This document shows, one piece after another, positions 1 to 60,900 of a DNA stretch of 64,000 nucleotides (position 1 is the stretch's first letter; every line of letters starts with the position of its first letter). A program made the position numbers and the translations under genes. The stretch comes from an uncultured virus (IMG/VR IMGVR_UViG_3300047678_000102). Lineage: Duplodnaviria > Heunggongvirae > Uroviricota > Caudoviricetes. The notes beneath the pieces are model-generated. The model was not told the origin of the DNA. It made no database searches and saw nothing but the letters and a program-made list of their open reading frames with translations. The stretch is taken from IMG/VR virus record IMGVR_UViG_3300047678_000102; one strand, given 5' to 3'.

Positions 1-110
1 CCCCTTAGTGTTACCTAAGAGGGGCTAAACGCCCTAATTTTATCGTTAAAGCCGAGGCTAACAAAACCCTAACCCCTTACAGGCTAACGGTTTAAAATTT
101 TTTTTTTCCG

Positions 111-139
111 AGAGCCCGCGCGCCGCGCCGCCCGTCAAA
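111..139 (+). promoter_or_regulatory. Phage early promoter copy 1 (AGAGCC-N16-CGTCAAA)
   Basis: Same bipartite motif and 16-bp spacer as 28 other copies; upstream of first ORF. Confidence 0.8.
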
Positions 140-209
140 CTATTAACGGGGGGGCGGCCGGCTCAAGTGGGCCGGGCCCACCCCGCGGCCCCTGGATGGA
201 GTTTCTGCT

Positions 210-605
210 ATGGTCAAGACCGAAGTGCGTTCCGCGTCGATCAACCGCGACGAAATCCTCGTCCCGATGGAAGGATTCGTCGCCCGCGAAATCGCCAACG
301 AAATCGCCCTGCCCGCCGTCGAGGTGGCCCTGCCGACCGAGGTGGCCCTGCCGAAGGCGAAGCGCGCCACGGTGCTCGGGTGCCACGCCGATAAGGACCC
401 CGGTAAGATCAACCAGGTGATGGTCGACGCGTCGGCGGCCGACGAGGTCCTCCACGAGGACGAAATCGCCGAACGGGCTCGCGAGGTGTACGGTGCCACC
501 GCGAAGTGCGACGGAGCTCGGGTGGTCGCGCACTTCAAGTTCTGGAAGGCCCGTGGTCGCGGCATCGAAGTGACCAACACCAAGGAGGGTTGGAAGATCA
601 AGTAA
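210..605 (+). CDS. wHTH-like DNA-binding protein, HFxxWxxxxRGI family (paralog 1)
   Basis: GGAG RBS; very GC-rich codons; motif GC..PxxIN..EIA..RVVAHFKFWKARGRGI shared with 32272, 61606, 62412. Confidence 0.75.
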   Translation: MVKTEVRSASINRDEILVPMEGFVAREIANEIALPAVEVALPTEVALPKAKRATVLGCHADKDPGKINQVMVDASAADEVLHEDEIAERAREVYGATAKCDGARVVAHFKFWKARGRGIEVTNTKEGWKIK

Positions 606-635
606 CGAAACGGCCCCGGAACGGGGGTGAGGTTG

Positions 636-669
636 GGGGAGTGGGGTGAAACCCACTCCCCTTTTTTTT
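636..669 (+). terminator. Intrinsic terminator
   Basis: GGGGAGTGGG/CCCACTCCCC stem followed by T8. Confidence 0.85.
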
Positions 670-696
670 GACTTCTCCGTACATACCCTTTATGGA

Positions 697-867
697 ATGA
701 GGGTGCGTACGAAGGTTGGTGATCTGGTCCGGGTGAAATCCGGGCAACACCAGAATCGAACTGGCCGCATCGTGATGGTGGCCGATGACGGATGTTGGTA
801 CGTGCGGTTGTGTGACGACTGGTCGGTGTGTGTGGCATTGCCCGCCAAGTCGTTCGTGTTGGCGTGA
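697..867 (+). CDS. Small KOW/SH3-like protein
   Basis: KVGDLVRVKSGQHQNRTGRIV resembles a KOW motif. Confidence 0.5.
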   Translation: MRVRTKVGDLVRVKSGQHQNRTGRIVMVADDGCWYVRLCDDWSVCVALPAKSFVLA

Positions 868-1052
868 AACTGACATTGGAGGTATGACATCATGGAAGAG
901 ATCGTGCGGAAGTGTGACACTGCGACACTGGCCAAGGTGTTGCAAGAGAACAGAAAGGAATCGGATCAGGTGAGCCAGGTGTTGGTTGTTGCCATCACCG
1001 CGGAACTGGATCGTCGTGCGTCGCGTTGTGGATGAGTTCCTGACATTAGGAG

Positions 1053-1259
1053 ATGGAAAAGATGTGGTACTACCCAACGATTACCCGGAATGGTGAAAAG
1101 TTCTTCGTGGTGTCCCCGGCATGGGGGAAGTATGAGTTGTCTCCCACGAAGCATGGCTATCTCTGGGAGACTGAGGAGTCGTGCCGGTCTGACAATCGGT
1201 GGCATCACCTCATCCAACCGGGTGATGAGGTGAAGTATGTCCGGACCTATCAGGCCTAA
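1053..1259 (+). CDS. Hypothetical early protein
   Basis: AGGAG next to ATG; strand context. Confidence 0.6.
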   Translation: MEKMWYYPTITRNGEKFFVVSPAWGKYELSPTKHGYLWETEESCRSDNRWHHLIQPGDEVKYVRTYQA

Positions 1260-1262
1260 CAC

Positions 1263-1314
1263 CGGTAATCATGACTCTGCCGTATAAGATGTACGGCAGA
1301 GTATGTGGAGACCG
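1263..1314 (+). other. Long intergenic hairpin (possible RNase III-type processing site)
   Basis: ACTCTGCCGTA/TACGGCAGAGT 11-bp stem extended by CAT/ATG and CGGT/ACCG; no U-tract. Confidence 0.45.
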
Positions 1315-1511
1315 TTGTTAGGAGGAGATGGGAAATGATGACTGCCCACGAGTTGGCGAGAGCTTTGTTTGGCTCTCCCGGATCACTGTGTGGAGATTGA
1401 GGTACAGGGATGGAGTTGTGACTACGGTCTTCCGACTGTGGTTGACAATCTGTCTGGTCCCGTCGTCGTGATCAAAGTGTATGAAGATACCTCGTACTAA
1501 GGAGATGAAAG

Positions 1512-1769
1512 ATGTACTCTGTGAGTGTACGTCAGAAGACCCGCTCTAGTGATGAGTGGCTTTACTTCGAGATGCCAGACAAGGATGGGGCAATGAATCT
1601 CGCCCACACGTTGCAGATCTGCCCCACCATCTGTGAGGTGGCCGTATGGGGCAACGGCAAACAACACTACTACAAAGATCTGGCCAAGTACGGCGACTTC
1701 ACTCCGATGTACGCCAAACCCATGCAGTTGGTGTGTGAATCTGAGATGATGGAAGAAGTCAACAAGTGA
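1512..1769 (+). CDS. Hypothetical early protein
   Basis: AAGGAG RBS. Confidence 0.7.
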   Translation: MYSVSVRQKTRSSDEWLYFEMPDKDGAMNLAHTLQICPTICEVAVWGNGKQHYYKDLAKYGDFTPMYAKPMQLVCESEMMEEVNK

Positions 1770-1772
1770 TAA

Positions 1773-1829
1773 GGTCGAAATGGGGATGACACATCCCCAT
1801 AATGGTGTGATGCACCATCTGATGAGACC
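1773..1829 (+). ncRNA. Hammerhead ribozyme, type II (HHR1); predicted cleavage after A1801 (AUA)
   Basis: GGTC-GAAA-[TGGGGATG/CATCCCCA]-TA-[ATGGTG/CACCAT]-CTGATGA-GACC: full catalytic core with stems I, II and III. Confidence 0.92.
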
Positions 1830-1850
1830 AGTATGACATTAGGAGGACGT

Positions 1851-2159
1851 ATGGAAAAGGTGAGTGTGTATGTGGAGATCGGTTGGGGCCGCAAGTTCAA
1901 TGGCTCCTACAACGCAGAGACCAAGGTCCAGGTCATGCAGTACCGTGGCCCTGAGAACAACTACGGTCGGAGTGAGTTCTCCTTCCGGGGATGTCCTCTG
2001 GGTCGTGGCGACACGGTGGAAGAAGCGATCAACGACTTTGTGTTTCGTGGTCGGGAGGAGTACGAGGGACGGGAACGGTTGATTCGTAGCATGATCGTGG
2101 TGGCGAGAACGAGTGATTACCGGGTGCCGGAAGCAAGCACCCGGTATGTGGGCGACTAA
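1851..2159 (+). CDS. Hypothetical protein (ribozyme-flanked cassette gene 1)
   Basis: AGGAGG RBS just 3' of HHR1. Confidence 0.75.
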   Translation: MEKVSVYVEIGWGRKFNGSYNAETKVQVMQYRGPENNYGRSEFSFRGCPLGRGDTVEEAINDFVFRGREEYEGRERLIRSMIVVARTSDYRVPEASTRYVGD

Positions 2160-2172
2160 AGGGAGGTGAAGT

Positions 2173-2454
2173 ATGAAACACTACTTCCTGACGGTCAACA
2201 GTCTGAGTAATGCCAGGGTCATGGATCCCAACGCTGAGATCGTGAGGGTGTTGCCCAAGGCCAAGGTGGTGCACTGCTACTGTTGCAAGCCATCTGAGGT
2301 GGTTGGGTATCTGCCTGAGAGGTACGTGGTGTTCATCTCCACGAATCTCTCGCGACGTGAGATCCGGCAGTATCCTGGTGTGATTCGTGTTCGCAGAAAG
2401 ATGCTTGATCGGTACAACGATGAGAGTGGGATGATTGTCCACGAAGTATGTTAA
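2173..2454 (+). CDS. Hypothetical protein (cassette gene 2)
   Basis: GGAGG RBS. Confidence 0.75.
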   Translation: MKHYFLTVNSLSNARVMDPNAEIVRVLPKAKVVHCYCCKPSEVVGYLPERYVVFISTNLSRREIRQYPGVIRVRRKMLDRYNDESGMIVHEVC

Positions 2455-2624
2455 GGAGGTGTGCTATCGACTACGTGTATGACATTGAGTACGTGACGTG
2501 TGACAACAACAAGTGTTACATCGTCCTTCACTACCGCGGAGAACCAATCTACCTGGAACGCGGTTGTGATCTGGGTATGTGGCTCGATCAACTCAATCAG
2601 TGTGGTTATGTTCGACGATCGTAA
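2448..2624 (+). CDS. Small hypothetical protein (cassette gene 3), paralog of 3170..3328
   Basis: Read by eye, below ORF-track cutoff: MLRRCAIDYVYDIEYVTCDNNKCYIVLHYRGEPIYLERGCDLGMWLDQLNQCGYVRRS; stop abuts HHR2; start uncertain. Confidence 0.6.
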   Translation: MLRRCAIDYVYDIEYVTCDNNKCYIVLHYRGEPIYLERGCDLGMWLDQLNQCGYVRRS

Positions 2625-2681
2625 GGTCGAAACTGGGTGTATGACACCCAGTAACACCGTGATGCGGTGTCTGACGAGACC
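2625..2681 (+). ncRNA. Hammerhead ribozyme, type II (HHR2); predicted cleavage after A2653 (GUA)
   Basis: GGTC-GAAA-[CTGGGTGT/ACACCCAG]-TA-[ACACCG/CGGTGT]-CTGACGA-GACC; stems covary with HHR1; same TGATG loop I. Confidence 0.92.
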
Positions 2682-2702
2682 AGAGTAGGTAGTGAGAAGT
2701 CA

Positions 2703-2731
2703 AGAGCCCTCTCACTACTGAGACCGTCAAA
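2703..2731 (+). promoter_or_regulatory. Phage early promoter copy 2
   Basis: AGAGCC-N16-CGTCAAA. Confidence 0.85.
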
Positions 2732-2774
2732 CTTGTAACGAGGGGAAACTTACTCAAACGGAGGTATTGAGACA

Positions 2775-3155
2775 ATGGATGCACAAGAAGGCAAGGAATG
2801 GGCCGTGAGACTGATCACACGTCTCAATGGCCGGCACAATGCCGAGACGATTGAGATTCGGGAGATGTACAACATCTCGGTGCCTCTCTGCGAGTTCGTC
2901 CGGGATGGGTACGTGGAACTGACCGAGTCCGGCATCGACTACGTGTTGGAGCTGCGTAGTGTGATGAGCGACAAGGGTCTTCTGACGAATGAAGACCTGA
3001 AACTCATCGAAGACGAGAATGAACGGAAGCAAGCGGATTACTTCGAAGAGAACGGTTGGTGTCGGGCATGTGGTCACGACCAACTCAATCTCGGTGGCAA
3101 GTACTGCGTGAAGTGTCTCCATGACATGGCGTCGTCTAAAGCTGCGTGCGGGTAA
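2775..3155 (+). CDS. Hypothetical protein with C-terminal CxxC..CxxC zinc finger
   Basis: GGAGG RBS; CRAC...CVKC. Confidence 0.7.
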   Translation: MDAQEGKEWAVRLITRLNGRHNAETIEIREMYNISVPLCEFVRDGYVELTESGIDYVLELRSVMSDKGLLTNEDLKLIEDENERKQADYFEENGWCRACGHDQLNLGGKYCVKCLHDMASSKAACG

Positions 3156-3169
3156 TTGGAGAACGAATC

Positions 3170-3328
3170 ATGAATCCGTTCGAGTACACCGTGGAGTATG
3201 AGACCACGGAGGGTAAGTGCCAACCCGTGGTTGTGATCTCTGGGGATCGCATTCGTCTGGCACATGCAGGTGACTTCGGACTCTTTCTGCATCTCCTGTC
3301 TCGCCAGGGTTGGGTGCGATGCAACTGA
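3170..3328 (+). CDS. Small hypothetical protein, paralog of 2448..2624
   Basis: GGAG RBS; YxxEYxT..KC..G..I.L...DxG..L..L...GxVR pattern. Confidence 0.6.
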   Translation: MNPFEYTVEYETTEGKCQPVVVISGDRIRLAHAGDFGLFLHLLSRQGWVRCN

Positions 3329-3335
3329 TCTAACA

Positions 3336-3364
3336 AGAGCCCTCTCACTACTGAGACCGTCAAA
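3336..3364 (+). promoter_or_regulatory. Phage early promoter copy 3
   Basis: AGAGCC-N16-CGTCAAA; spacer identical to copy 2. Confidence 0.85.
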
Positions 3365-3391
3365 CTTCTAACGGGGTTTGACGGTTTTTTT
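3356..3391 (+). terminator. Terminator hairpin overlapping the promoter -10 box
   Basis: ACCGTCAAAC/GTTTGACGGT stem followed by a T-run. Confidence 0.65.
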
Positions 3392-3405
3392 GTTGCTAGG
3401 AGGGA

Positions 3406-3795
3406 ATGATGCGGAAGTTCCTACCTGATGAGTTAGAGTGTTGGAGGGATCTAGGACCAACTGTTAGGGACGTGATTGCACATGAGATCCCAGGAAATGG
3501 GAACATCTATGTCTTTGAGGGTATTGATGGCGAAGGGATCTGGTATTGTGAGAATCTTCTAACTAAGTTGTATGATGGTCCTCACGATGGACGGATTGAT
3601 TACTTCCCCAATGAGGAAACCAATTACTTCGAGAGTGCCTTTGGCATCTATGAAGGAATGCCATGGTCTCTAGGCGGATATGGATGTTCTGCTCAAGCTG
3701 CTCTTCCGTGCTTCTTCTGTCTCGAAATGGATCGTGCGAAGTGGATCGAGTTGTTTCCTGAGTTGATTGCAACTGAATATCCTGAGGAGGTGTAG
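3406..3795 (+). CDS. Hypothetical protein
   Basis: AGGAGG RBS. Confidence 0.7.
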   Translation: MMRKFLPDELECWRDLGPTVRDVIAHEIPGNGNIYVFEGIDGEGIWYCENLLTKLYDGPHDGRIDYFPNEETNYFESAFGIYEGMPWSLGGYGCSAQAALPCFFCLEMDRAKWIELFPELIATEYPEEV

Positions 3796-3796
3796 T

Positions 3797-4054
3797 ATGA
3801 AGCTTGAAGATGTTCTGATGAAGTATGAACCTCATCGTTTGACTGGCGATCGTCGTCAGTGTTGGGTTGATAATCCCGATGAAGAAGTGTATGAGTTCTT
3901 ATCTCAATCGGAACGTGATGAGTTCTGGAATGAGGCGCACGATGTGTTCTTCGAGATGTACAATGGTGATGATCGTATTCGTGACGATGGTCCTGGGATG
4001 AGCGACGATTGGAGTAGCGACGGAAAGTTCTACCTCTCCATCTATGTACGATAA
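3797..4054 (+). CDS. Acidic hypothetical protein
   Basis: GGAGG RBS; D/E-rich. Confidence 0.7.
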   Translation: MKLEDVLMKYEPHRLTGDRRQCWVDNPDEEVYEFLSQSERDEFWNEAHDVFFEMYNGDDRIRDDGPGMSDDWSSDGKFYLSIYVR

Positions 4055-6267: not shown

Positions 6268-6546
6268 CTACACATCTAATTCATTCACAACTTCCATCAC
6301 TTCTTCATACGTATGAGTATCATTAAACTTTGGTACACTCATCTCATATTTATTAGCAATATACACATTGATCTTATCCCAGATCTCAGATTGATATTCA
6401 CCATTGGTTATTTTCAAAGTGGCACCAGATAAACACCATTTGCAAGCAGCTTCAGATGTAGGCATAACAGATATGTCACTTTGATTCTTAGCATACGTTC
6501 CTTGACACCACCTCGATTTATCAGATAGTAGTTCTTTGATTTTCAT
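6268..6546 (-). CDS. DUF6197-like protein (paralog)
   Basis: WCQG.YA..CKWCLSGA..FNDTHTYEEV. Confidence 0.65.
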   Translation of the reverse strand: MKIKELLSDKSRWCQGTYAKNQSDISVMPTSEAACKWCLSGATLKITNGEYQSEIWDKINVYIANKYEMSVPKFNDTHTYEEVMEVVNELDV

Positions 6547-14863: not shown

Positions 14864-15445
14864 TTACTCATCTGGATGATCTCCTCTACCACTGTCAAAA
14901 AGCTCCACTGTATCACCAGGAATAAATTCACCTTCATTTTCGATGATGTTTTTCATGATGGCTTCAACACGATCAAATTTATCTCTATACTGAAGACCAA
15001 ACTTTTCTGCTCTGCGGATACTGTTGTGGAAAGAAGATGGCCATCTGTACACTCCAAAATACTGATGAGACATGTTTTCACATTCAAAAGCAGATTCGAT
15101 CAAAACCATCTGGTCAACAGAAAAGATCCGCTTGAGAACGTCTTGAATGTTATGTTCGGTTGAGCGAATAACAGGTTCCCCATCCCAATCTAACTTATAT
15201 CCAATCTCGCTCATTGTCACATCATCATAAATACGAACATAACTCAACACACATGCTCCAAGAGCACACACTCCACAATTGTTTTCAATTAGATCTAAGT
15301 GATTTTGGGCGTTGTCTAATTGGCTGACAACTCTTTGTGAGCCAAGCGATCCTTTTAGATAGTGTCCTTGACGAAGAGTTAGAAACTCTAATCGGTCGAG
15401 GACGTCTTGCGCCACTGCGACCCGCATTTTATCTTGTTCGTCCAT
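14864..15445 (-). CDS. CxxCAxG family hypothetical protein (paralog 1 of 4)
   Basis: RVAVAQDVL..CGVCALGACVLSYVR..IESAFE..AIMKNIIENEGEFIP. Confidence 0.75.
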   Translation of the reverse strand: MDEQDKMRVAVAQDVLDRLEFLTLRQGHYLKGSLGSQRVVSQLDNAQNHLDLIENNCGVCALGACVLSYVRIYDDVTMSEIGYKLDWDGEPVIRSTEHNIQDVLKRIFSVDQMVLIESAFECENMSHQYFGVYRWPSSFHNSIRRAEKFGLQYRDKFDRVEAIMKNIIENEGEFIPGDTVELFDSGRGDHPDE

Positions 15446-15474
15446 TGTTTAAACTCCTTGAAAGAAATAGAAAG

Positions 15475-15634
15475 TATCCCTGGAGGGATTCGAACCCCCA
15501 ACCTACGCATTCTTCTTAAAAGTACTCCCGGTGGGATTCGAACCCACATAAGTCCAGTTACGGTACTTTGGGTAGAAACCAAAGCCGATACGGGAGTAGA
15601 AGTGCGTTGCTCTATCCAGTTGAGCTACAGGGAC
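15475..15634 (-). tRNA. tRNA-Arg(UCU) interrupted by an 86-nt insert in the anticodon loop
   Basis: Removing 15512-15597 gives a 74-nt cloverleaf: GTCCCTG/CAGGGAT, D-arm with A20, ACGCA-CTTCTAA-TGCGT, GGGGG-TTCGAAT-CCCTC. Confidence 0.85.
15523..15597 (-). ncRNA. Nested tRNA-like RNA (rewired D-arm, UCU anticodon)
   Basis: ACTCCCG/CGGGAGT acceptor; CTTTGG-TTTCTAC-CCAAAG arm; AACTGGA D-loop-like motif 3' of that arm; GTGGG-TTCGAAT-CCCAC T-arm. Confidence 0.8.
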
Positions 15635-15674
15635 ATAACGGACCTTTTATAGTGGTGTCCATCACTATTCCATC

Positions 15675-16064
15675 CTACTTCTCGCCGTTGGCGATTCGAG
15701 TGAGTTGCTTGAGGTGGAACAGGCAGATCTTGCGTGCTTTCACCAGAGCCTGACCATACAGTTTGTGCCCCCACTTCTTGGTGGGATTCTCAATCACCCA
15801 ACCAGCATAGATCGTACCTCGCCGGCAGGTGGATTGGGAGAACCCACGACCATTGTCATGCTTGGTGTCAGCCGATTGGCGTTCATCAGCGGTCTGGCGT
15901 TGGTAGAGCTTGACAATGGCCTTCTCGACGGCCTCCGGCTTGGCGAAGAGAAGGGTCTTGATCTCATCTTCAGTCCACACCTTCTCGGCCTTGACCGACA
16001 CAGGCACATGGCTCACAACCGTGGGCAGGTTGGTCGTAACGGAAAGAACTTTGACTTCCACCAT
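15675..16064 (-). CDS. Conserved phage hypothetical protein
   Basis: AIVKLYQRQTADE..T.HDNGRGFS; GC-rich; first gene after promoter 7. Confidence 0.75.
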   Translation of the reverse strand: MVEVKVLSVTTNLPTVVSHVPVSVKAEKVWTEDEIKTLLFAKPEAVEKAIVKLYQRQTADERQSADTKHDNGRGFSQSTCRRGTIYAGWVIENPTKKWGHKLYGQALVKARKICLFHLKQLTRIANGEK

Positions 16065-16115
16065 TTTACCGTCTCCTTGAATGAGTTTCCGTTTTAACGC
16101 TTCCGCCGTTAATAA

Positions 16116-16144
16116 TTTGACGGTTAAGACAGTGTAAGGGCTTT
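16116..16144 (-). promoter_or_regulatory. Phage early promoter copy 7
   Basis: AAAGCC-N16-CGTCAAA. Confidence 0.85.
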
Positions 16145-16160
16145 TGATAGGTCAATTATT

Positions 16161-18511: not shown

Positions 18512-19072
18512 TTACAATTCCCGGATTGGTACAAACTTACCATTGTTCTTGATGACGTTATTCATGATAGCTTTGAGTCGGTGTTCGTACATTTCTTGTG
18601 TAGCCAAATCAAATCCGGCTTCTTCACGTGTCAATCCCCACCCACCTTCAAATGCACTTTCCATTTTGTCAAGATCAGAAAAATTGAAAATATCCTTCAT
18701 ATGATTGGTCATATCCCAAGAATAGCTTCTCAGAACTTGACCTACCTTCATCTTATCAAACAGTCGCACAGAAGATAGAAAAACACTGCCGATTGCGCAA
18801 ACCTGACACTTTTCCGCAATTTTGTCAATTTGCTTTTGGGCATCCCAGTTTAGCATATTCTTTGGGAAGGCATCGACAATATGTGTATATTTATACTCCT
18901 CATCATTTTTTAGTTCTAGATATGCTCCACCCATAGCGGTCAGAGTCTTTAGCTTGAGTTGTAGTAGCACATCTTTTGCTACCAAGACTGCCCTTTCTTC
19001 CATCGTCATTGCATCAAGTTCCTTCTTGGTATACTTCTTCGGGGCAGTCTTGTCGGAAGTGTTCTTGCTCAT
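18512..19072 (-). CDS. CxxCAxG family hypothetical protein (paralog 2)
   Basis: RAVLVAKDVL..CQVCAIG..MESAFE..AIMNNVIKNNGKFVP. Confidence 0.75.
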   Translation of the reverse strand: MSKNTSDKTAPKKYTKKELDAMTMEERAVLVAKDVLLQLKLKTLTAMGGAYLELKNDEEYKYTHIVDAFPKNMLNWDAQKQIDKIAEKCQVCAIGSVFLSSVRLFDKMKVGQVLRSYSWDMTNHMKDIFNFSDLDKMESAFEGGWGLTREEAGFDLATQEMYEHRLKAIMNNVIKNNGKFVPIREL

Positions 19073-19345
19073 GGTTTATTCTCCGTTGAGTTTCTTTTCT
19101 AGTTGCGACACACGATTTTCCAAAGACTTACTTCTTGATCAAGGAAGCATTGAACACGATTTCCGATCGGAAATAACGCCAATCCTTCACACTTGCCCGC
19201 TTCTGGTCCACGAAGTACTCGGCACATTCCCGAGTAACGAAAGGCTTCCGGGTGACCTGTGAGGTGCGGTAATTGCTGATAATGGCTTCCCACATAATTG
19301 AACTCCTTGGATTGAGGGGAACGTGACTAAAACCGCCGTTACAAG

Positions 19346-20423: not shown

Positions 20424-20969
20424 TTATGGAACAAACTCACCGTTATTCTGAATAATATTTATCATGATTGCTTCAAGCTTATCACGTAGGGTTCGATACT
20501 CATTACCAAATAACACGGCTTTTTCCACCGAATCTCCATAACTCTCTTCTACGTCTTCATACATAAAAGTCACATCATGATTCTCAGATTCAAATGCAGA
20601 TTCAATCAAAAGAATCTGAACATCTGAAAATATGTTTTTCAGAATATTTCTAATCGTTTTGTTTTTAGGATTCAATCTTTCAAAGTAATCATCATATCCC
20701 ATTTCTTTGATTGTCACTTTGTTATACAATCTGACATAACTCAACACACATGCTCCAAGAGCACAAACTTGACAATCAGATTGAATCTTATCAACATATT
20801 TCTGAGCATTGTCATTTATTGTTTCGAGAGGCAAGTAAGATAACTGGGGAGAAAAGATGTATTCTCCTGATTTAACTTGAATGGTGTTGATTCGAGATAG
20901 AACGTCTTTGGCTACGTTCACTCGCATTTGAGCTCGTTCATCTAGAACCTGCTGATTCATTACTTGCAC
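20424..20969 (-). CDS. CxxCAxG family hypothetical protein (paralog 3)
   Basis: RVNVAKDVL..CQVCALGACVLSYVR..IESAFE..NIIQNNGEFVP. Confidence 0.75.
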   Translation of the reverse strand: MQVMNQQVLDERAQMRVNVAKDVLSRINTIQVKSGEYIFSPQLSYLPLETINDNAQKYVDKIQSDCQVCALGACVLSYVRLYNKVTIKEMGYDDYFERLNPKNKTIRNILKNIFSDVQILLIESAFESENHDVTFMYEDVEESYGDSVEKAVLFGNEYRTLRDKLEAIMINIIQNNGEFVP

Positions 20970-21265
20970 TCCTTTTGTCGAAGTTCTTCCAATTCAAAAA
21001 CGTCAATGTCATCACATGTATCTTCTTCGTACCAATCTACCCAAGAACCATTTTCAGAATCTGTATTGTCGGAGGAATCAAATACTTGCAATCCTCCGAT
21101 ATTACAATAATCAGGTTTGATACGATGTTCAAGTTGGAACAGGTCGTAATAAGCCAAAGTGTTGAGAATGAGCTTAGCTTCTATCAGGGTCTTGACAGAA
21201 ACATAAAATGGCTTACCAGGAACTTGTGGAATCCACCATACTCGAAGATCTCCATTTGAATCCAT
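20960..21265 (-). CDS. P22 gp17-like (superinfection exclusion-related) protein
   Basis: LRVWWIPQVPGKPFYV.V...EA...L..LA.YDLFQ....IKPDYCN.GGLQ. Confidence 0.75.
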   Translation of the reverse strand: MDSNGDLRVWWIPQVPGKPFYVSVKTLIEAKLILNTLAYYDLFQLEHRIKPDYCNIGGLQVFDSSDNTDSENGSWVDWYEEDTCDDIDVFELEELRQKECK

Positions 21266-22284: not shown

Positions 22285-22575
22285 CTACACATCCAGCGTT
22301 TCAGAAATTGCTTTCACTTCTTCATATGTATGACTGTCATTAAATACAATCATAGATGTGCCGTTATAGTGCTTCCGTATATAATCGTGAATCTTATCAA
22401 GGGTGTCATTCCATACAAGTTGGTCGTGTTTTCCATAACATTTCAATGCTGCGCCAAAAAAGCACCACTTACTAGCCTTTGGATCGCTAGGTTCAACTGA
22501 TTTTCCTTCGGGAGTCAAAGCTGCATTACCTTGACACCACTTAGATTTATCAGATAGAACTTCTCTAATCTTCAC
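22285..22575 (-). CDS. DUF6197-like protein (paralog)
   Basis: LSDKSKWCQG..KWCFFGA..FNDSHTYEEV. Confidence 0.65.
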   Translation of the reverse strand: MKIREVLSDKSKWCQGNAALTPEGKSVEPSDPKASKWCFFGAALKCYGKHDQLVWNDTLDKIHDYIRKHYNGTSMIVFNDSHTYEEVKAISETLDV

Positions 22576-22588
22576 TATTTAACTCCTG

Positions 22589-22891
22589 TTAGATATCAAG
22601 ATGATCAAGAACTTCTTTTACTTCTTCAAAACGATGACTATCATTGAACTGAGGAATGTTCATTTTGAACTTCTTCCAAAGATAATCCGAAAGCTTATTA
22701 CAACGATCCGAAGTGTCAGTATTGATATAATCCTCTATGGGACATGCAATATCTCCACCAGATAGGCACCAACAACAAGCGTTGGGATCATTGGGAGATA
22801 CTTGATCACCATTAGAATTTCTGGCATATACATGTTGGGTCCATTTAGATGCATCAGAAAAGAACTCGCGTAGTTTCATAGATATTCTCAT
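22589..22891 (-). CDS. DUF6197-like protein (tandem paralog)
   Basis: KWTQHVYAR..CCWCLSG..FNDSHRFEEV. Confidence 0.65.
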   Translation of the reverse strand: MRISMKLREFFSDASKWTQHVYARNSNGDQVSPNDPNACCWCLSGGDIACPIEDYINTDTSDRCNKLSDYLWKKFKMNIPQFNDSHRFEEVKEVLDHLDI

Positions 22892-25353: not shown

Positions 25354-25438
25354 TGCTCCCGGTGGGGATCGAACCCACTTGTGGATTACTCCACGGTAGA
25401 TTAAAAGTCTACTGCCCATCCATTTAGGCGTCGAGAGC
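25354..25438 (-). tRNA. tRNA-Lys(UUU) with atypical long variable arm
   Basis: GCTCTCG/CGGGAGC; GTAGA-CTTTTAA-TCTAC; extra GTGGA-GTAA-TCCAC arm; GTGGG-TTCGATC-CCCAC. Confidence 0.8.
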
Positions 25439-27013: not shown

Positions 27014-27098
27014 TGGGCAGTGGAGGATTTGAACCTCTCGGGTACCACCTGTCATATTATCCCACCAGATTTACAGTCTGGCGACAGGAACACCACCC
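27014..27098 (-). tRNA. Non-canonical tRNA-Tyr(GUA)-like RNA, rewired D-arm, 8/4 fold
   Basis: GGGTGGTG/CACTGCCC; CCTGTCG/TGACAGG helix around CCAGA-CTGTAAA-TCTGG; TGGTA after it; GAGG-TTCAAAT-CCTC. Confidence 0.75.
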
Positions 27099-27103
27099 AC
27101 AAG

Positions 27104-27790
27104 TTACTGCTTCTTCAGTAACTTGACACCAGGAGATTTCAGTTCTTTCAACACATCAAGAGCCAAATCTGCTGCCATTTCAAGATATTTATCACAACCA
27201 GTCGTTCCATATCCAGAGATCCTATGATGGTTTACTTGCAACCCTTCAATAAAATCTCTGGCCATACCAGAGAAGGAACCATGATCTATTTTAGAACGAT
27301 ATCCAACTAAATGACAAGCGATGTTATTGACCGTATCATTTTGATATTGTGAATTGTTATAGAGGCGTTTGATTGATTTGGCGTCTCCATTCTTCTCGCA
27401 CAAATCAACATCATCTTTGAATTTGTTTGGATAATAACACCGCATAAATTCTGGTAGCATTACTTGAACTAATTTCTTGAACATCCTTTTCATAAATTCA
27501 CGGCTATCTACAACACCCTTACTACCAAGTTGCGCCAACCCAAGATCATGCAGACCTTCTGATCTTGTGTATTCGGTTTTCCAATCCAAATCGTTCAGTG
27601 CGATTTTGAAAGCTCTTACAGAAGAAGTCACGCATTTAGGATCATCTCCATGTGGGAGACCAAGTGTCTCACAAATTGCTGCTTCGATACATACTTGTTC
27701 TCCTTGGTCTCCAACACCACTACAAAGACCACGACCAAGGATTTCTTCATACTTACGAAGATCAAACTTCTTCAAAACAAAAGCACTCAT
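27104..27790 (-). CDS. Hypothetical protein, paralog of 36915..37616
   Basis: RGLC.G.G..VCIEAAIC..LGLPH.DDP.CV..LGLAQLGSKGVVD. Confidence 0.75.
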   Translation of the reverse strand: MSAFVLKKFDLRKYEEILGRGLCSGVGDQGEQVCIEAAICETLGLPHGDDPKCVTSSVRAFKIALNDLDWKTEYTRSEGLHDLGLAQLGSKGVVDSREFMKRMFKKLVQVMLPEFMRCYYPNKFKDDVDLCEKNGDAKSIKRLYNNSQYQNDTVNNIACHLVGYRSKIDHGSFSGMARDFIEGLQVNHHRISGYGTTGCDKYLEMAADLALDVLKELKSPGVKLLKKQ

Positions 27791-37647: not shown

Positions 37648-38790
37648 CTACTTCTTAGAAAACAACACCTTTTCTATACCGTCAGCATATCCACGCCAGA
37701 TCTTCTTCAATCCGTCCACCGTCTGATTCTTACCCTGACCACGACGGAAGTTGAACAGAATTCCAGTGAATGGAGTCTTCTTCACGATTGAAAGAGCAAA
37801 TTCTTTCTGATCTTCAATCTGCCAAGTCTTACTCCAGATATCTTCTAATTGAAGATATGCATTCTGAACTCGTTCATTCATCTCATTATAGACTGCCTTT
37901 ACTTCTTTGAAGTAAGAGAGGAACTCATCCCCTTCACCAGACAATATGTATGGGAGTAGGGTGGAAGGCTTATACAAGGCTTCCCCATTGTTTCCCTTAG
38001 CTCGGTGCAGGGAAACATAACGAGGGTTCTTCAGCTTCCACCGCGTTACGTAATCATAGATCACCACACCCTCGTAGGTTGCTTCGGGATGTACCAAGAC
38101 AAACTCCTGAGCGTCTTGAAGACCACGGAAGGAGTACTTCTGGACCTTCTTGAAATACTTCCCTTCATCCTCTTCCAGTTCACCCAGAAGAGCAGTGATT
38201 TCCTGTTCCCCTTGGAATCTGGTGAGTAGATGCATTGCCGGTTCTTTGTATTCCCGAACCACCTTGTTCCAAAGGGAAGTGAATTCACAAACATACGTCA
38301 AAGAAGGATCAAGTCTGAGATCCTGAAGGTCTTGAATTCCCATCGCCTTCAGAAATCCTTCCTGCCAGGTGAAAGAAGGATCTAATCCGTAATATTTGGC
38401 TTGCCACTCATAGTTGAACATGGGGAACAAGCCAAACGACCCTCTGGTGTTTGCGTGCCACTTCCCTTGATAGTTGTAGATAAGACACAACGAACCATCT
38501 TCTTTACCAGAAGCGAAGGCTTTCCCCCAATGGAAGGACTTCATCTCTTCTTCCATCTCACCGACATTGAAGAAGCGATTGAAAGCTTTCGCTACGAGAG
38601 AGTGATCGTTGGTATCCAACACCAACCCACGAGCCTCCCGTACAACCGGATGGCTTTTTGGGGAATCAATCATACTGTAGTTGTAGATCGCCAGTGGAAG
38701 CGTAGGGTGCTTCACACAAGAGATCCCAAGTTCCTTCTCAAGGTCTTCAGCGGTCTTGCCAGACTGAAGATACGTCTGTATGTTAAGCAT
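37648..38790 (-). CDS. T4 Rnl1-like RNA ligase
   Basis: REARGLVL..KAFNRFFN; motif I KEDGSL; EGVVI; KLKNPRY. Confidence 0.85.
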   Translation of the reverse strand: MLNIQTYLQSGKTAEDLEKELGISCVKHPTLPLAIYNYSMIDSPKSHPVVREARGLVLDTNDHSLVAKAFNRFFNVGEMEEEMKSFHWGKAFASGKEDGSLCLIYNYQGKWHANTRGSFGLFPMFNYEWQAKYYGLDPSFTWQEGFLKAMGIQDLQDLRLDPSLTYVCEFTSLWNKVVREYKEPAMHLLTRFQGEQEITALLGELEEDEGKYFKKVQKYSFRGLQDAQEFVLVHPEATYEGVVIYDYVTRWKLKNPRYVSLHRAKGNNGEALYKPSTLLPYILSGEGDEFLSYFKEVKAVYNEMNERVQNAYLQLEDIWSKTWQIEDQKEFALSIVKKTPFTGILFNFRRGQGKNQTVDGLKKIWRGYADGIEKVLFSKK

Positions 38791-40133: not shown

Positions 40134-40724
40134 TTACTTCATACTCTTGATCTTATCTTCCATGTCTTCTAATGCTTCTTTAAGTTCTTTTGCCAGACCT
40201 TCGTGAACATGACCTAGAATCTTTAATCGTCTCCATCCTTCACTAGCCAACTTCATAAGATATCCCTTGTTTACATTCATACTATCGCCGTAATTATCAA
40301 TGCTGTCAATCATCTTGCCCATCATAGCAAGAGGGGACATCTTCCGCATCTGGGCTTCACGAATCAGATTCTTCTCTGCTCGTGGTCTACGCAACCATTC
40401 CTTTCCCTCTACAGGGAACGTGAGTTCAAGAACAAGACCAAGAACTTCTGGGCCGCATTCCCTCTCAATGCGGTCGGACCACTGCTTTTGAATCCGCTTC
40501 CGTTCTTCAATGTCGTCCAGTTCGGCTCCAGCGTCTTCCACAACGTCGTGGAGCCACATAGCGGCGATTACTTCGTCAGGCAGTTTGTGAAGAGCAGCAC
40601 GTAATGCACACCTCTCAGGATGAACGATGTATGGAGCATCACTCCACTTACGCTTCACACCTTTGTGTGCTTCGTGAGCAATCTCTTTAGCTTTTTGAAC
40701 CATTTCACTCACTGCTCCTGACAT
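40134..40724 (-). CDS. HD-domain small alarmone hydrolase (SpoT-HD/Mesh1-like)
   Basis: AH.GVKRK....PYIVHP..AAMWLHDVVED..LV.ELT..K..D..DN. Confidence 0.8.
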   Translation of the reverse strand: MSGAVSEMVQKAKEIAHEAHKGVKRKWSDAPYIVHPERCALRAALHKLPDEVIAAMWLHDVVEDAGAELDDIEERKRIQKQWSDRIERECGPEVLGLVLELTFPVEGKEWLRRPRAEKNLIREAQMRKMSPLAMMGKMIDSIDNYGDSMNVNKGYLMKLASEGWRRLKILGHVHEGLAKELKEALEDMEDKIKSMK

Positions 40725-40937
40725 ACTACACCTCTTATTAATGATGAACAAAGTATCTGTAAGCAAGACCACCAAGAACAAACCAAATACCTCTGATGAT
40801 AAACCACATCGCTACCTTCCTGGCAAATGATTTATCGGTAGTATGAGCAATAACTGTCGGCCCGGCAAACATCCCTAGAAAGCAAAATAGTAGCATCAGG
40901 CTAAGAACATCTGTATGGTCTGAGTTGTTACGAGACA

Positions 40938-41369
40938 TTACTTACCCTCGTTAGCGATACTTGCCAAAACGTCTTCAACTGTGAAGTCTTGCATACGTTT
41001 CCTCATTTCCAAAACCTTTTCTTCTGGGACACCATGCAAATTCTTATACTCTCCATTACAAACTACAAACATAATTTCAATACCAAGGTCGTGGGCAGCT
41101 TTGACATAAGGTTTGACGTCCCTCATAGTCAAATTGGTATTGTCAACAATAACGCTCTTACCTTCTTGGAGAGCTTTGATTGTCCTCTTCTGATTCAAAT
41201 TGTGAAACAACCCAAGTTTGGTGGGTTGAAACTCATACTTACCATCAATATAATGGTATTCATCAGTGGAGTAGATAACCGCGTTGTATTGAATGGCTAA
41301 TTCAGCAGACTTGGTGGACTTCCCTCCACCTGAAGGCCCGCGCATAATGATGAGAATTTGTTTATTCAT
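40938..41369 (-). CDS. P-loop kinase (AAA_33, polynucleotide-kinase-like)
   Basis: IMRGPSGGGKST; STDEY; VIVDNTN; HGVP. Confidence 0.8.
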   Translation of the reverse strand: MNKQILIIMRGPSGGGKSTKSAELAIQYNAVIYSTDEYHYIDGKYEFQPTKLGLFHNLNQKRTIKALQEGKSVIVDNTNLTMRDVKPYVKAAHDLGIEIMFVVCNGEYKNLHGVPEEKVLEMRKRMQDFTVEDVLASIANEGK

Positions 41370-60174: not shown

Positions 60175-60900
60175 TTAGCTACCCTCTCTCAACACCTTGT
60201 TTTTCTTAATAGACGTTTTACTCCAATGACCTCCTTGAATGAAGTCATGTCGCACCATCTTCCAACGATGTGTCATCCACTCACCATCTCCAACTTTAAC
60301 GTATACTCCCTCTCTTTTTTGGTTAGGAGCATATAAGCTATCTTGTTGACACAAGTATTCTAACTGTTCATAACTTTCGATCTTTCCAGTATGAAGAAGA
60401 GGAACTACTTGGAACCCGCTATCTGTTAACCAACTTCTTGCTACGATAGGATCAACAAACATTTGCCTCTCATAATTATACAGATCGAATGCTACAAACA
60501 AACTTGGTAGATGGGTGTATGGCAATCCATGTGTTGCATATAACCATTCACCATAAACACTTACTGGTTCAATAGCTAAACGATCAAACTTCTCTTTGTT
60601 TTCATACCACCAGTTCCATACACTAGCAAACTGCATTTTAGCAGGAGTTCTAGCTTGGCTGAACCCCTTATGCAGTATGTGGTTACGATTTCTAATTATT
60701 GGTTGATTATCAACCATTGCCATACCGCAATTAGCACCGTCGATTTTTTCTTCAACGACAGCTCCAGCACTATCAAAAATAATTCCACATTCTTTTACAG
60801 AAGATATGAGATCCCCACGTTGTACATTAGGCTTGTGAGGGAGATGTAGTGTCCTCGGATAATCTGGAAGAATATCACTTTCTCGAAGTTTCTTTGTCAT
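60175..60900 (-). CDS. RNA ligase family protein (Rnl2-like nucleotidyltransferase)
   Basis: YPRTLHL; EEKIDGAN; YGEW; FDLY; EGVYVK; KMVR..F. Confidence 0.8.
   Translation of the reverse strand: MTKKLRESDILPDYPRTLHLPHKPNVQRGDLISSVKECGIIFDSAGAVVEEKIDGANCGMAMVDNQPIIRNRNHILHKGFSQARTPAKMQFASVWNWWYENKEKFDRLAIEPVSVYGEWLYATHGLPYTHLPSLFVAFDLYNYERQMFVDPIVARSWLTDSGFQVVPLLHTGKIESYEQLEYLCQQDSLYAPNQKREGVYVKVGDGEWMTHRWKMVRHDFIQGGHWSKTSIKKNKVLREGS

What the first reader, a model, noticed from the sequence alone, without database searches (positions are those of the whole stretch)
15475..15634. tRNA inside a tRNA: tRNA-Arg(UCU) whose anticodon-loop insert is itself a tRNA-Arg(UCU)-like RNA
Seen: deleting 15512-15597 (86 nt; 36/37 and 37/38 placements are equivalent) leaves a clean 74-nt tRNA-Arg with the A20 identity base. 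The insert starts exactly at the 5' base of a second acceptor stem (ACTCCCG/CGGGAGT) with its own T-arm and UCU loop. Its 11-nt tail ends in AGAAG, which pairs with the outer CUUCU and leaves A37-A38 bulged. It is far too short for a group I intron, and the 2-nt bulge is not a canonical BHB motif. Inference: the inner RNA may act as a processing signal. RNase P would cut right after the outer anticodon, a second cut frees the 3' half, and a phage ligase joins the halves. This could give two Arg decoders from one locus, or hide the anticodon from host anticodon nucleases until maturation.
Basis: partly seen in the sequence, partly recalled or inferred. Interest (0 to 1): 0.92.

Follow-up and report, generated by a model that had tools for sequence, protein, structure and literature searches.

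The report
tRNA-shaped insert splitting a phage tRNA-Arg
A giant-phage gene for the arginine tRNA that reads AGA is interrupted right after its anticodon by an 86-base insert shaped like a small tRNA, a kind of phage tRNA "intron" noticed in 2019 whose removal, if it happens, is still unexplained.

Summary
Window 15634..15475 is a tRNA-Arg(UCU) once 15597..15512 (86 nt) is removed. The insert is a 75-nt tRNA-like RNA (Rfam tRNA, 36.1 bits; no D-arm; UCU loop) followed by an 11-nt tail. The tail's last five bases pair with the outer CUUCU.

Independently built contigs from two samples match the locus exactly, so it is not a misassembly. No RNA data exist for it, and I found no close relative.

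It is not unique. Devoto et al. 2019 reported Lak megaphage tRNA introns that "may encode a tRNA", and this scan flagged such introns before on other DNA (e1-5959538). In IMG/VR I found 6 further clean nested cases. In all 6 one end of the inner tRNA-like helix lies inside the outer anticodon loop, where RNase P or RNase Z would cut.

Best reading (0.45): a real intervening sequence. RNase P makes the 5' cut, an unknown activity cuts at the AA bulge, and a phage RNA ligase reseals the loop. The window encodes an Rnl1-family ligase, an Rnl2-like ligase, and kinase and HD genes.

Rivals: a recently killed gene (0.25), or an unspliced or decoy RNA (0.2). "Two Arg decoders" is unlikely.

Verdict: a new variant of a known but unexplained kind.

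The parts
15598..15634 (-). 5' exon of the outer tRNA-Arg(UCU): acceptor 5' strand, D-arm, anticodon-stem 5' strand, loop bases C32-U36 (CUUCU)
   Evidence: ARAGORN intron mode; stem counts; sequence
15512..15597 (-). 86-nt intervening sequence in the anticodon loop (36/37, equivalently 37/38)
   Evidence: ARAGORN intron mode; excision gives a standard tRNA-Arg(tct); single copy in the window
15523..15597 (-). Inner tRNA-like RNA (75 nt). It has a 7-bp acceptor stem ACUCCCG/CGGGAGU, no D-arm, a hairpin UUUGG-UUUCUAC-CCAAA, a 19-nt variable region, a canonical T-arm GUGGG-UUCGAAU-CCCAC, discriminator A and no CCA. Its first base abuts U36 of the outer tRNA.
   Evidence: Rfam RF00005, 36.1 bits; closest tRNA in my collection is the window's own type II tRNA at 25354..25438
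15512..15522 (-). 11-nt tail CUUUUAAGAAG. Its last 5 bases pair with C32-U36 of the 5' exon and leave A37-A38 as a 2-nt bulge at the 3' junction.
   Evidence: MFE fold; 101 of 20000 random ends pair as well
15475..15511 (-). 3' exon of the outer tRNA-Arg(UCU): A37 A38, anticodon-stem 3' strand, variable loop, T-arm, acceptor 3' strand, discriminator A
   Evidence: ARAGORN; 96% identical over 27 nt to the uninterrupted tRNA-Arg(UCU) of LR756511.1
37648..38790 (-). Rnl1-family RNA ligase (380 aa), candidate sealing enzyme. The link to this locus is inferred.
   Evidence: Pfam PF09511 RNA_lig_T4_1, E 4.1e-15
60175..60900 (-). Second RNA ligase (241 aa, Rnl2-like family). Link inferred.
   Evidence: Pfam PF09414 RNA_ligase, E 5.9e-26
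40134..41369 (-). Adjacent HD-domain protein (40134-40781) and P-loop kinase-like protein (40938-41369), possible RNA end-healing enzymes. Link inferred.
   Evidence: Pfam HD_4, E 4.5e-8, and AAA_33, E 2e-13

Best explanation
This is a live tRNA-Arg(UCU) gene of a huge phage from moss-associated communities. It carries a tRNA-shaped intervening sequence of the little-understood kind first noticed in Lak megaphages. The gene sits between two same-strand protein genes and is probably co-transcribed with them. Proposed route follows. (1) Inferred: host RNase P treats the inner acceptor/T-arm helix as a tRNA and cuts at its 5' end. That position is exactly the 5' junction, so the 5' exon ends in U36-3'OH. 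(2) Shown by folding only: the tail's AGAAG keeps C32-U36 paired and presents the 3' junction as a 2-nt AA bulge. (3) Inferred, enzyme unknown: a second cut at G|AA frees the 3' exon. RNase Z at the inner discriminator followed by trimming of the 11-nt tail is the alternative. (4) Inferred: a phage RNA ligase (the Rnl1 homologue, with the kinase and HD proteins if the ends need healing) reseals the anticodon loop. The product is a 74-nt tRNA for AGA, the commonest Arg codon of the phage. The inner RNA is a processing handle, not a second decoder.
For: The outer tRNA is flawless once the 86 nt are removed. The inner RNA passes Rfam's tRNA threshold, and its 5' end coincides with the junction. 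The tail pairs with the anticodon loop. An unrelated 84-nt, non-tRNA-like insert sits at the same site of another phage's tRNA-Arg(UCU) (L187). It also ends in a 5-base stretch (AGAGG) that pairs with CUUCU, followed by a 3-nt bulge; 464 of 20000 random ends do as well. AGA makes up 232 of 641 Arg codons in 70 window ORFs, and no other tRNA-Arg was found in the window. Six have a perfect outer scaffold: 7/7 acceptor, 4/4 D stem, 5/5 anticodon stem, 5-nt variable loop. In 6 of 6 an end of the inner helix lies within 4 nt of the outer anticodon stem. Excision by that rule gave an ARAGORN-valid tRNA in all 8 excisions tried, covering 7 loci with L134 read two ways. In L162 the RNase P plus RNase Z sites give the loop CUGUUAA (Asn). 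Its exons resemble Asn tRNAs (best score 24.5, n=13), not His tRNAs (0.0, n=4), which argues against ARAGORN's own His reading. L128 is a tRNA-Arg(UCU) that holds a full tRNA-Phe (72.4 bits) flush with its 5' junction. RNA ligase, kinase and HD genes are in the window. Devoto 2019 reports that such introns are highly conserved in Lak phages.
Against: No RNA evidence of any kind exists for this locus or for any nested locus examined here. No relative of this locus was found, so conservation and covariation of the tail pairing cannot be tested. RNase P plus RNase Z cuts alone give a 7-nt loop in only 1 of the 6 clean IMG/VR loci. The others need 3, 3 or 6 extra nucleotides or a 30-nt leader removed, and this window needs 11. 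No known bacterial nuclease is documented to cut at such a bulge. The five bases upstream of the predicted RNase P site are base-paired, which may hinder RNase P (recalled knowledge, untested). The best-matching tRNA-Arg(UCU) in the nearest phage record is uninterrupted, so the insert is not needed for that tRNA. Large phages commonly carry RNA ligases for other reasons, such as repair of anticodon-nuclease damage.
Confidence: 0.45

Rival explanations
1. This is a recently inactivated gene. A degenerate copy of one of the phage's own type II tRNAs (with a short tail) was inserted into the anticodon loop by recombination or an unknown mobile process. The outer tRNA is dead but too young to have decayed, and nothing is spliced.
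For: The nearest phage record has the same tRNA uninterrupted. The inner RNA is a damaged tRNA (no D-arm, 36 bits) whose 3' half resembles the window's own type II tRNA. Only 6 of 123 two-T-loop loci have a perfect outer scaffold, so most such arrangements may be wrecks. No enzyme is known for the 3' cut.
Against: The outer tRNA has no defect at all. The insertion point restores an exact 7-nt loop. The tail's pairing with the anticodon loop is unexpected for a random insertion (101 of 20000) and recurs in L187. There is no target-site duplication or terminal inverted repeat (sequence) and no second copy of the insert in the window. The contigs of three samples show no form lacking exactly the 86 nt. 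AGA is the phage's top Arg codon.
Confidence: 0.25
2. The RNA works without splicing. Either the whole two-domain RNA acts as a tRNA mimic, or only the inner tRNA-like RNA is released by RNase P/Z. A mimic could serve as a decoy for a host anticodon nuclease or another tRNA-binding defence protein, since it displays a UCU stem-loop while the true anticodon is buried in a helix. In the release case the outer halves would serve only as a processing frame.
For: The inner hairpin loop UUUCUAC repeats the UCU anticodon. The related phage LR756511.1 has tRNAs with hairpin inserts at 32/33 and 33/34 and with large D-loop or variable-region inserts, which no splicing scheme explains. Earlier findings of this scan describe phage tRNA mimics without usable anticodons (unchecked notes). 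The 3' cut needed for splicing has no known enzyme.
Against: A perfect outer cloverleaf with an exact 7-nt loop after excision is not needed for a decoy. In other nested loci the inner element has no anticodon-like arm (L162, L134, L078) or carries an unrelated anticodon (Phe in L128), so anticodon mimicry is not a class feature. No defence or nuclease partner is identified.
Confidence: 0.2
3. It is a conventional intron: a self-splicing group I intron, a self-cleaving ribozyme, or an archaeal/eukaryal-type bulge-helix-bulge intron cut by a splicing endonuclease.
For: The position after the anticodon (37/38 is an allowed placement) is the canonical site of archaeal and eukaryal tRNA introns, and the intron pairs with the anticodon as in those pre-tRNAs (recalled knowledge).
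Against: 86 nt is far below the size of group I introns (a size I recall). No Rfam intron or ribozyme family matched at E <= 10 in 15300-15800. The fold has a 5-bp helix, a 2-nt bulge, and a 5' junction at a helix-helix stack, not two 3-nt bulges around 4 bp. PF01974 (tRNA_int_endo) has 0 matches in the 595-kb relative while 4 of 4 archaeal controls match. No such domain appeared among the 110 window ORFs scanned against Pfam.
Confidence: 0.04
4. It is an assembly chimera that joins two tRNA genes.
For: tRNA genes share T-loop and D-loop words that can mislead assemblers.
Against: Independently built contigs from two samples of different studies match 15239-15653 and beyond with 0 differences.
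Confidence: 0.02

Closest known systems
'Enigmatic' tRNA introns of Lak megaphages, including a tRNA-Thr(TGT) intron predicted to encode a tRNA (Devoto et al. 2019, Nat Microbiol, PMC6784885; passages of abstract, results and methods read); also this scan's earlier finding e1-5959538
   Same: A huge phage has a tRNA gene split in the anticodon loop by a short insert that is itself tRNA-like. It is too short for group I, its class is unknown and no mechanism is known.
   Different: This is a different phage group: about 40% GC, from a moss metagenome, with nearest record LR756511.1, versus 26% GC gut Lak phages. By the earlier agent's summary the Lak inserts are a small hairpin followed by a mini-tRNA that ends the insert. 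I saw that build in L179 and L167 (3' end flush). Here the order is the mirror image: the tRNA-like part starts the insert (5' end flush) and an anticodon-pairing tail ends it. I did not read Devoto's supplementary tables.
Archaeal and eukaryal pre-tRNA introns (bulge-helix-bulge; EndA/Sen endonuclease plus RtcB or Trl1 ligase) - recalled knowledge
   Same: It sits next to the anticodon with 37/38 as an allowed placement. The intron pairs with the anticodon, the 3' junction lies in a bulge, and excision would be by protein enzymes plus a ligase.
   Different: There is no 3-4-3 bulge-helix-bulge. No EndA homologue was found in the relative or the window. The setting is bacterial and phage.
Bacterial group I introns in tRNA anticodon loops (cyanobacterial tRNA-Leu(UAA), Azoarcus tRNA-Ile) - recalled, and listed among this scan's earlier phage findings
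   Same: An intervening sequence in the anticodon loop of a bacterial-type tRNA gene, where intron bases pair with the last bases of the 5' exon.
   Different: The size is 86 nt and there is no group I core (no Rfam hit). The pairing partner is the 3' end of the insert, not an internal guide near its 5' end.
tRNA-like processing signals: MALAT1/mascRNA and plant-mitochondrial t-elements cut by RNase P and RNase Z (t-elements: Forner et al. 2007, PMC1920247, seen only as title and abstract in a search listing; mascRNA recalled)
   Same: A tRNA-shaped element with no decoding role that recruits RNase P/Z to define RNA ends.
   Different: Those elements define the ends of mRNAs or lncRNAs. Here the cuts would fall inside another tRNA, and the flanks must be rejoined.
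Phage T4 anticodon-loop break repair (PrrC nuclease, Pnkp, Rnl1) - recalled knowledge
   Same: A phage-encoded Rnl1-type ligase (with kinase/phosphatase) reseals a tRNA broken in the anticodon loop. An Rnl1-family gene is in the window.
   Different: In T4 the break is a host attack on a host tRNA. Here the break would be a programmed maturation step of a phage tRNA. No assay links the window's ligase to this locus.

Membership tests
tRNA (Rfam RF00005) - outer gene | Cloverleaf with 7-bp acceptor stem, D-arm, 5-bp anticodon stem with 7-nt loop, and T-arm, contiguous in the gene | tested here: not met
   The gene is not contiguous, so ARAGORN default and Rfam miss it. All stems are perfect after removing 86 nt, so it is a split tRNA gene.
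tRNA (Rfam RF00005) - inner element | Score above the gathering threshold with all four arms | tested here: inconclusive
   36.1 bits against a threshold of 29, but the D-arm is missing (13 model positions aligned to 2 nt) and the variable region is 19 nt. It is tRNA-like, not a standard tRNA.
Group I intron | Conserved catalytic core (P3-P9; Rfam RF00028) and a size that I recall as roughly 200 nt or more | tested here: not met
   86 nt; no Rfam match to any intron family at E <= 10 in 15300-15800
Bulge-helix-bulge (archaeal-type) tRNA intron | Two 3-nt bulges separated by a 4-bp helix, each holding a splice site | tested here: not met
   The fold gives a 5-bp helix, a 2-nt bulge at the 3' site, and a 5' site at a helix-helix junction
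Bulge-helix-bulge (archaeal-type) tRNA intron | A splicing endonuclease (PF01974) available | tested here: not met
   0 matches in LR756511.1 with 4 of 4 archaeal controls positive; none in 110 window ORFs. The rest of this phage genome and the host are not available.
Phage tRNA-shaped introns (Lak-type; not a curated family) | A short insert in the anticodon loop of a phage tRNA gene whose removal restores a standard tRNA | tested here: met
Phage tRNA-shaped introns (Lak-type; not a curated family) | The insert contains an acceptor/T-arm minihelix with a canonical T-loop | tested here: met
Phage tRNA-shaped introns (Lak-type; not a curated family) | One end of the minihelix coincides with a splice junction | tested here: met
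   The 5' end is flush here. In 6 of 6 clean IMG/VR cases one end lies within the loop. In the Lak build it is the 3' end, by the earlier agent's summary, which I did not re-derive on Lak DNA.
Phage tRNA-shaped introns (Lak-type; not a curated family) | The insert is actually removed from the RNA | not testable with these tools
   No RNA run holds the locus

The most novel reading that the evidence does not exclude
Huge phages use a third, so far undescribed route of tRNA splicing. Their tRNA introns are built as tRNA mimics, so the universal tRNA end-processing enzymes (RNase P at the 5' end, RNase Z or a CCA-end nuclease at the 3' end) act as the splicing endonucleases. An intron segment pairs with the anticodon loop to set the second cut, and a phage Rnl1-type ligase closes the loop. 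This window shows the '5'-flush plus anticodon-pairing tail' form, the mirror image of the Lak 'hairpin plus 3'-flush mini-tRNA' form.
Probability: 0.3. Interest if true: 0.85.

Novelty: new variant of a known kind. Interest (0 to 1): 0.6.

Why it matters
Bacteria and their phages are taught to have only self-splicing introns in tRNA genes. Suppose these tRNA-shaped inserts are removed by RNase P/Z plus a phage ligase. That would be a protein-dependent tRNA splicing pathway outside archaea and eukaryotes. It would also give phage RNA ligases a job beyond repairing nuclease damage, and it would explain the 'enigmatic' introns reported in megaphages in 2019.

This locus, with L128 and L162, turns the idea into an exact prediction: cut sites at U36|A and G|AA, and a 74-nt product. 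A simple in-vitro reaction can test it. Practically, such genes are missed by default tRNA finders, so phage tRNA inventories are undercounted.

If the locus is instead a dead gene or a decoy, it still documents how tRNA genes in huge phages are remodelled.

Tried and rejected
**Searches for relatives**
- blastn of 15300-15800 against 50,697 phage records found no match.
- The whole genome of the window is not held.
- Exact patterns from the outer 5' half (8 loci) and from the inner 3' end (7 loci) in IMG/VR hit only ordinary tRNAs.
- For the flanking 193-aa protein, tblastn found no phage match and IMG/VR held no relative.
- For the flanking 129-aa protein, only distant hits appeared, and none of the 3 loci has a tRNA nearby.
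- The pattern 'anticodon-arm halves 60-92 nt apart' gave 1 IMG/VR locus (L187). The metagenome scan gave 2 loci, L188 (the same contig as L187) and L189; both are identical to L187 across the 196 nt compared. None is a relative of this window.
- A looser tRNA-Arg(UCU) intron pattern gave 7 loci: 6 intronless tRNAs and one giant-virus MAG with a 65-nt intron.

**RNA evidence**
- No RNA holder was listed for the locus. The laid runs are all DNA contigs.

**Other checks**
- Known ribozymes and introns: none at E <= 10.
- Splicing endonuclease PF01974: none in the relative.
- Mobile-element signs: no second copy of the insert in the window or in any fetched locus beyond T-arm similarity; no target duplication or inverted ends by eye.
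- I looked for a way in which RNase P plus RNase Z alone would yield a normal loop. It fails: the result is an 18-nt loop, or a 10-bp arm with a 6-nt loop.
- RNase III, RNase E and a second RNase P cut do not fit the geometry of the two junctions (reasoning only).

**Literature**
- Five searches found no paper on the mechanism of tRNA-like introns in phages.
- The huge-phage paper PMC7162821 has 0 occurrences of 'intron' in its main text.

**Housekeeping**
- timed out and was rerun in a lighter form.
- Of 33 rows with some outer-like scaffold, I kept only those with a 7/7 acceptor, 4/4 D stem, 5/5 anticodon stem and 5-nt variable loop: 6 IMG/VR loci plus the window. L078 is mentioned separately as a type II case. 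The other 25 rows were set aside as weak or chance scaffolds.
Full report
**What is there**

The finding lies on the minus strand. Read 5'->3' from 15634 to 15475, the sequence has four parts:
- the first 37 nt of a tRNA-Arg(UCU): acceptor strand GUCCCUG, D-arm GCUC-AACUGGAUA-GAGC, anticodon-stem strand ACGCA, and loop bases CUUCU;
- a 75-nt tRNA-like RNA (15597..15523);
- an 11-nt tail CUUUUAAGAAG (15522..15512);
- the last 37 nt of the tRNA-Arg: AA, UGCGU, AGGUU, T-arm, CAGGGAU, A.

ARAGORN in default mode reports 5 tRNAs in the window and misses this one. With intron search it reports tRNA-Arg(tct) c[15474,15634] with an 86-nt intron after CTTCT. After in-silico excision, plain ARAGORN calls tRNA-Arg(tct). 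The insert and the 3' exon both start with A, so junctions 36/37 and 37/38 are equivalent.

Rfam scores the inner element as tRNA at 36.1 bits against a gathering score of 29. The alignment shows a perfect 7-bp acceptor stem, a canonical T-arm and a hairpin with loop UUUCUAC. It shows no D-arm, and it has a 19-nt variable region.

The tail's AGAAG pairs with C32-U36, and A37-A38 form a 2-nt bulge. Energy is -56.6 kcal/mol, z = -2.90, and 0 of 200 shuffles fold as well. On the 5' strand, 17 consecutive bases are paired: outer anticodon stem, anticodon-tail helix, then inner acceptor stem.

**Is it real DNA?**

Public runs that hold the stretch are all moss metagenomes, and none is RNA. A 907-nt Logan contig of run X1 (possibly the source sample) covers 15239-16145 with 0 differences. 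A 415-nt contig of run X3, from another sample and study, covers 15239-15653 with 0 differences. No contig skips exactly the 86 nt. The joints that skip 96-104 nt carry 10-18 foreign letters and belong to other organisms' tRNA-Arg genes. The locus is therefore not an assembly chimera, and these data show no intron-less allele.

**Context**

Nearly all genes of the window are small, unknown and on the minus strand. The closest record is the 595-kb uncultured huge phage LR756511.1, with 54.8% amino-acid identity on a 465-aa protein. The tRNA sits between two minus-strand ORFs (15675-16064 upstream, 14864-15445 downstream). No convincing promoter or terminator of its own appeared in a simple scan.

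The window encodes:
- an Rnl1-family RNA ligase, 37648-38790;
- a second RNA ligase (PF09414), 60175-60900;
- a P-loop kinase-like protein, 40938-41369;
- an HD-domain protein, 40134-40781.

AGA is the commonest Arg codon, 232 of 641 Arg codons in 70 ORFs. No other tRNA-Arg is in the window.

**Relatives of the locus**

None was found.

LR756511.1 has 60 tRNA matches. Its tRNA-Arg(UCU) at 243666-243738 scores 73.4 bits and is uninterrupted. It is 85% identical to the outer 5' exon over 41 nt and 96% identical to the 3' exon over 27 nt. The two anticodon stems differ at three pairs, all compensated. However, the window's stem version is shared with many other phage tRNA-Arg genes, so this says nothing about selection after the insertion. 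Conservation and covariation of the nested structure could not be tested.

**It is not unique**

An earlier finding of this scan (e1-5959538) pointed me to Devoto et al. 2019. I read the relevant passages. Lak megaphage tRNAs have 'enigmatic', highly conserved introns. One tRNA-Thr(TGT) intron 'itself may encode a tRNA'. The authors state that phage tRNA introns had not been reported before.

To see how general the build is, I scanned IMG/VR for two canonical T-loops 25-50 nt apart. A script then required a perfect outer scaffold: 7/7 acceptor, 4/4 D stem, 5/5 anticodon stem and a 5-nt variable loop. Six loci pass (L086, L128, L134, L162, L167, L179), as does the window used as a control. L078 is a further type II case. 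I set aside the other 25 rows that had only a weak scaffold.

In all 6 clean loci one end of the inner acceptor helix lies within 4 nt of the outer anticodon stem, that is, inside the outer anticodon loop.
- 5'-flush, like the window:
  - L128 is a tRNA-Arg(UCU) split after U34 by a complete tRNA-Phe(GAA) scoring 72.4 bits plus CCC.
  - L134 holds a minihelix plus CCA.
  - L086 holds a full tRNA scoring 59.5 bits plus 6 nt; its excised product has the odd anticodon AUU.
  - L162 is also 5'-flush.
- 3'-flush: L179 (Arg CCU) and L167 (GCU) each have a 30-nt leader carrying a hairpin that begins AUACAG. L162 is also 3'-flush.

L162 is flush on both sides. Cuts at the RNase P and RNase Z positions of its 46-nt minihelix leave the loop CUGUUAA (Asn). 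Its exons resemble the Asn tRNAs of my collection (best score 24.5, n=13) and not the His tRNAs (0.0, n=4). ARAGORN's own intron guess was His. This supports the rule modestly.

Excision by the inner-end rule gave an ARAGORN-valid tRNA in all 8 excisions tried, covering 7 loci with L134 read two ways.

Against the simplest model, RNase P plus RNase Z cuts alone give a 7-nt loop in only 1 of the 6 loci. The others, and the window, need extra nucleotides removed: 3, 3 and 6 nt, two 30-nt leaders, and 11 nt here.

**A second clue at the 3' junction**

Another phage contig (L187, identical in L188 and L189) has a tRNA-Arg(UCU) with the same anticodon arm, split at the same place by an unrelated 84-nt insert made of hairpins with no T-loop. 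That insert ends in AGAGG-U. This again pairs with CUUCU and leaves a 3-nt bulge at the 3' junction. Such pairing arises in 101 of 20000 random ends for the window and in 464 of 20000 for L187, allowing a 1-nt offset (post hoc). Two unrelated inserts thus share 'insert 3' end pairs with bases 32-36, junction in a bulge'. This looks like a requirement of whatever makes the 3' cut.

**What it is not**
- It is not a group I intron or a known ribozyme: it is 86 nt, and no Rfam family matched at E <= 10.
- It is not a bulge-helix-bulge intron: the fold has a 5-bp helix and a 2-nt bulge, and the 5' junction lies at a helix stack.
- PF01974 is absent from the 595-kb relative although 4 of 4 archaeal controls match. 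It is also absent from the 110 window ORFs scanned.
- It is not a transposon-like insertion: there are no terminal repeats or target duplication, and it is single copy.

**Most likely mechanism (confidence 0.45)**

The inner acceptor/T-arm helix is a processing handle. The steps are:
1. Inferred: RNase P cuts at its 5' end, which is the 5' junction, leaving U36-3'OH.
2. From folding only: the tail holds the 5' exon and exposes the AA bulge.
3. Inferred, enzyme unknown: a second cut at G|AA releases the 3' exon with A37 at its 5' end.
4. Inferred: a phage ligase reseals the loop. The Rnl1 homologue is the natural candidate, since I recall that T4 Rnl1 reseals breaks in the anticodon loop.

This yields the AGA decoder the phage's codon usage calls for.

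The inner RNA is unlikely to be a second Arg decoder. It lacks the D-arm and therefore A20, and its body looks like a D-armless type II tRNA. Its closest match is the window's own type II tRNA at 25354..25438. In other loci the inner element has no anticodon arm at all.

**Rivals**
- A recently killed gene (0.25). This fits the uninterrupted tRNA in the relative, the damaged inner tRNA, and the missing enzyme for the 3' cut. It does not explain the flawless outer tRNA, the exact loop restoration, or the tail pairing.
- An unspliced mimic or decoy, or release of the inner RNA only (0.2). This fits the repeated UCU loop and the several tRNAs of LR756511.1 with hairpin inserts at 32/33 and 33/34 or with large D-loop and variable-region inserts. 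It is not supported as a class feature.
- Conventional intron types (0.04).
- Assembly artefact (0.02).

**Novelty and score**

The kind of object (a phage tRNA intron that looks like a tRNA) has been in print since 2019 and was flagged before in this scan on other DNA. Its mechanism is unknown. I found no paper on it in five full-text searches.

This locus is a new variant for three reasons. It comes from a different phage group and habitat. The tRNA-like part is at the 5' end of the insert. It also has an anticodon-pairing tail. Together with L128, L162 and L187 it gives exact, testable cut sites. With no RNA evidence and no relatives, I score interest at 0.6.

Noticed in passing
window 25354..25438 (-): A type II tRNA (14-nt variable arm, discriminator A, 44.7 bits) carries the anticodon UUU. 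ARAGORN calls it Lys, but a long-arm body with A73 looks Leu-like. Its 3' half closely matches the inner element of the finding. Who charges it is open.
   Followed up: partly
window 27017..27110 (-): A degenerate tRNA-like RNA was found through an orphan T-loop GGTTCAAATCC. It reaches only 29.3 bits on the tRNA-Sec model (below threshold), has the loop CUGUAAA (GUA) and a long variable arm, and its acceptor stem is broken by a 3-nt bulge.
   Followed up: partly
L062 (LR756511.1 220338-220430) and L060 (288201-288302): The related huge phage has a tRNA-Met(CAU)-like gene with a 21-nt hairpin inserted between bases 32 and 33. It also has a weak tRNA-Arg(UCU)-like gene (29.6 bits) with a 30-nt hairpin before the anticodon. 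No tRNA-like module is present in either.
   Followed up: partly
L058 (LR756511.1 291311-291437) and L059 (48527-48647): Two tRNAs of the same phage carry large inserts: a 55-nt insert in the D-loop (50.6 bits) and a 50-nt variable region (47.9 bits).
   Followed up: no
L128 (IMGVR_UViG_3300018430_000106, 18641-19193): A tRNA-Arg(UCU) is split after U34 by a complete tRNA-Phe(GAA) (72.4 bits) plus CCC, inside a tRNA array. This is the cleanest 'tRNA inside a tRNA' I saw.
   Followed up: partly
L187 = L188, and L189 (IMGVR_UViG_3300025818_000030; Ga0075460_10010964): A tRNA-Arg(UCU) has an 84-nt hairpin-rich, non-tRNA-like insert at the same site as the window's. Its 3' end also pairs with CUUCU. 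The three fetched copies are identical.
   Followed up: partly
L179 and L167: Two unrelated contigs share one intron build: a 30-nt leader whose hairpin starts with AUACAG 1-2 nt after the 5' junction, followed by a mini-tRNA that ends at the 3' junction. AUACAG may be a recognition motif.
   Followed up: no
window 1..4000: The first 4 kb have 53% GC and positive GC skew, against about 37-45% GC and negative skew in the rest of the window. This may be a different module or a genome end.
   Followed up: no
window 6268-6546, 22285-22575, 22589-22891 (-); 20960-21265 (-); 59011-59538 (+): There are three DUF6197 paralogues, a homologue of superinfection-exclusion protein gp17 (PF17420, E 2.2e-26), and a plus-strand RNase H-like (RVT_3) gene.
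   Followed up: no
L196 (IMGVR_UViG_GVMAG-M-3300027892-5_000001): A giant-virus MAG has a tRNA-Arg(UCU) with a 65-nt intron near 37/38, presumably of the eukaryotic type.
   Followed up: no
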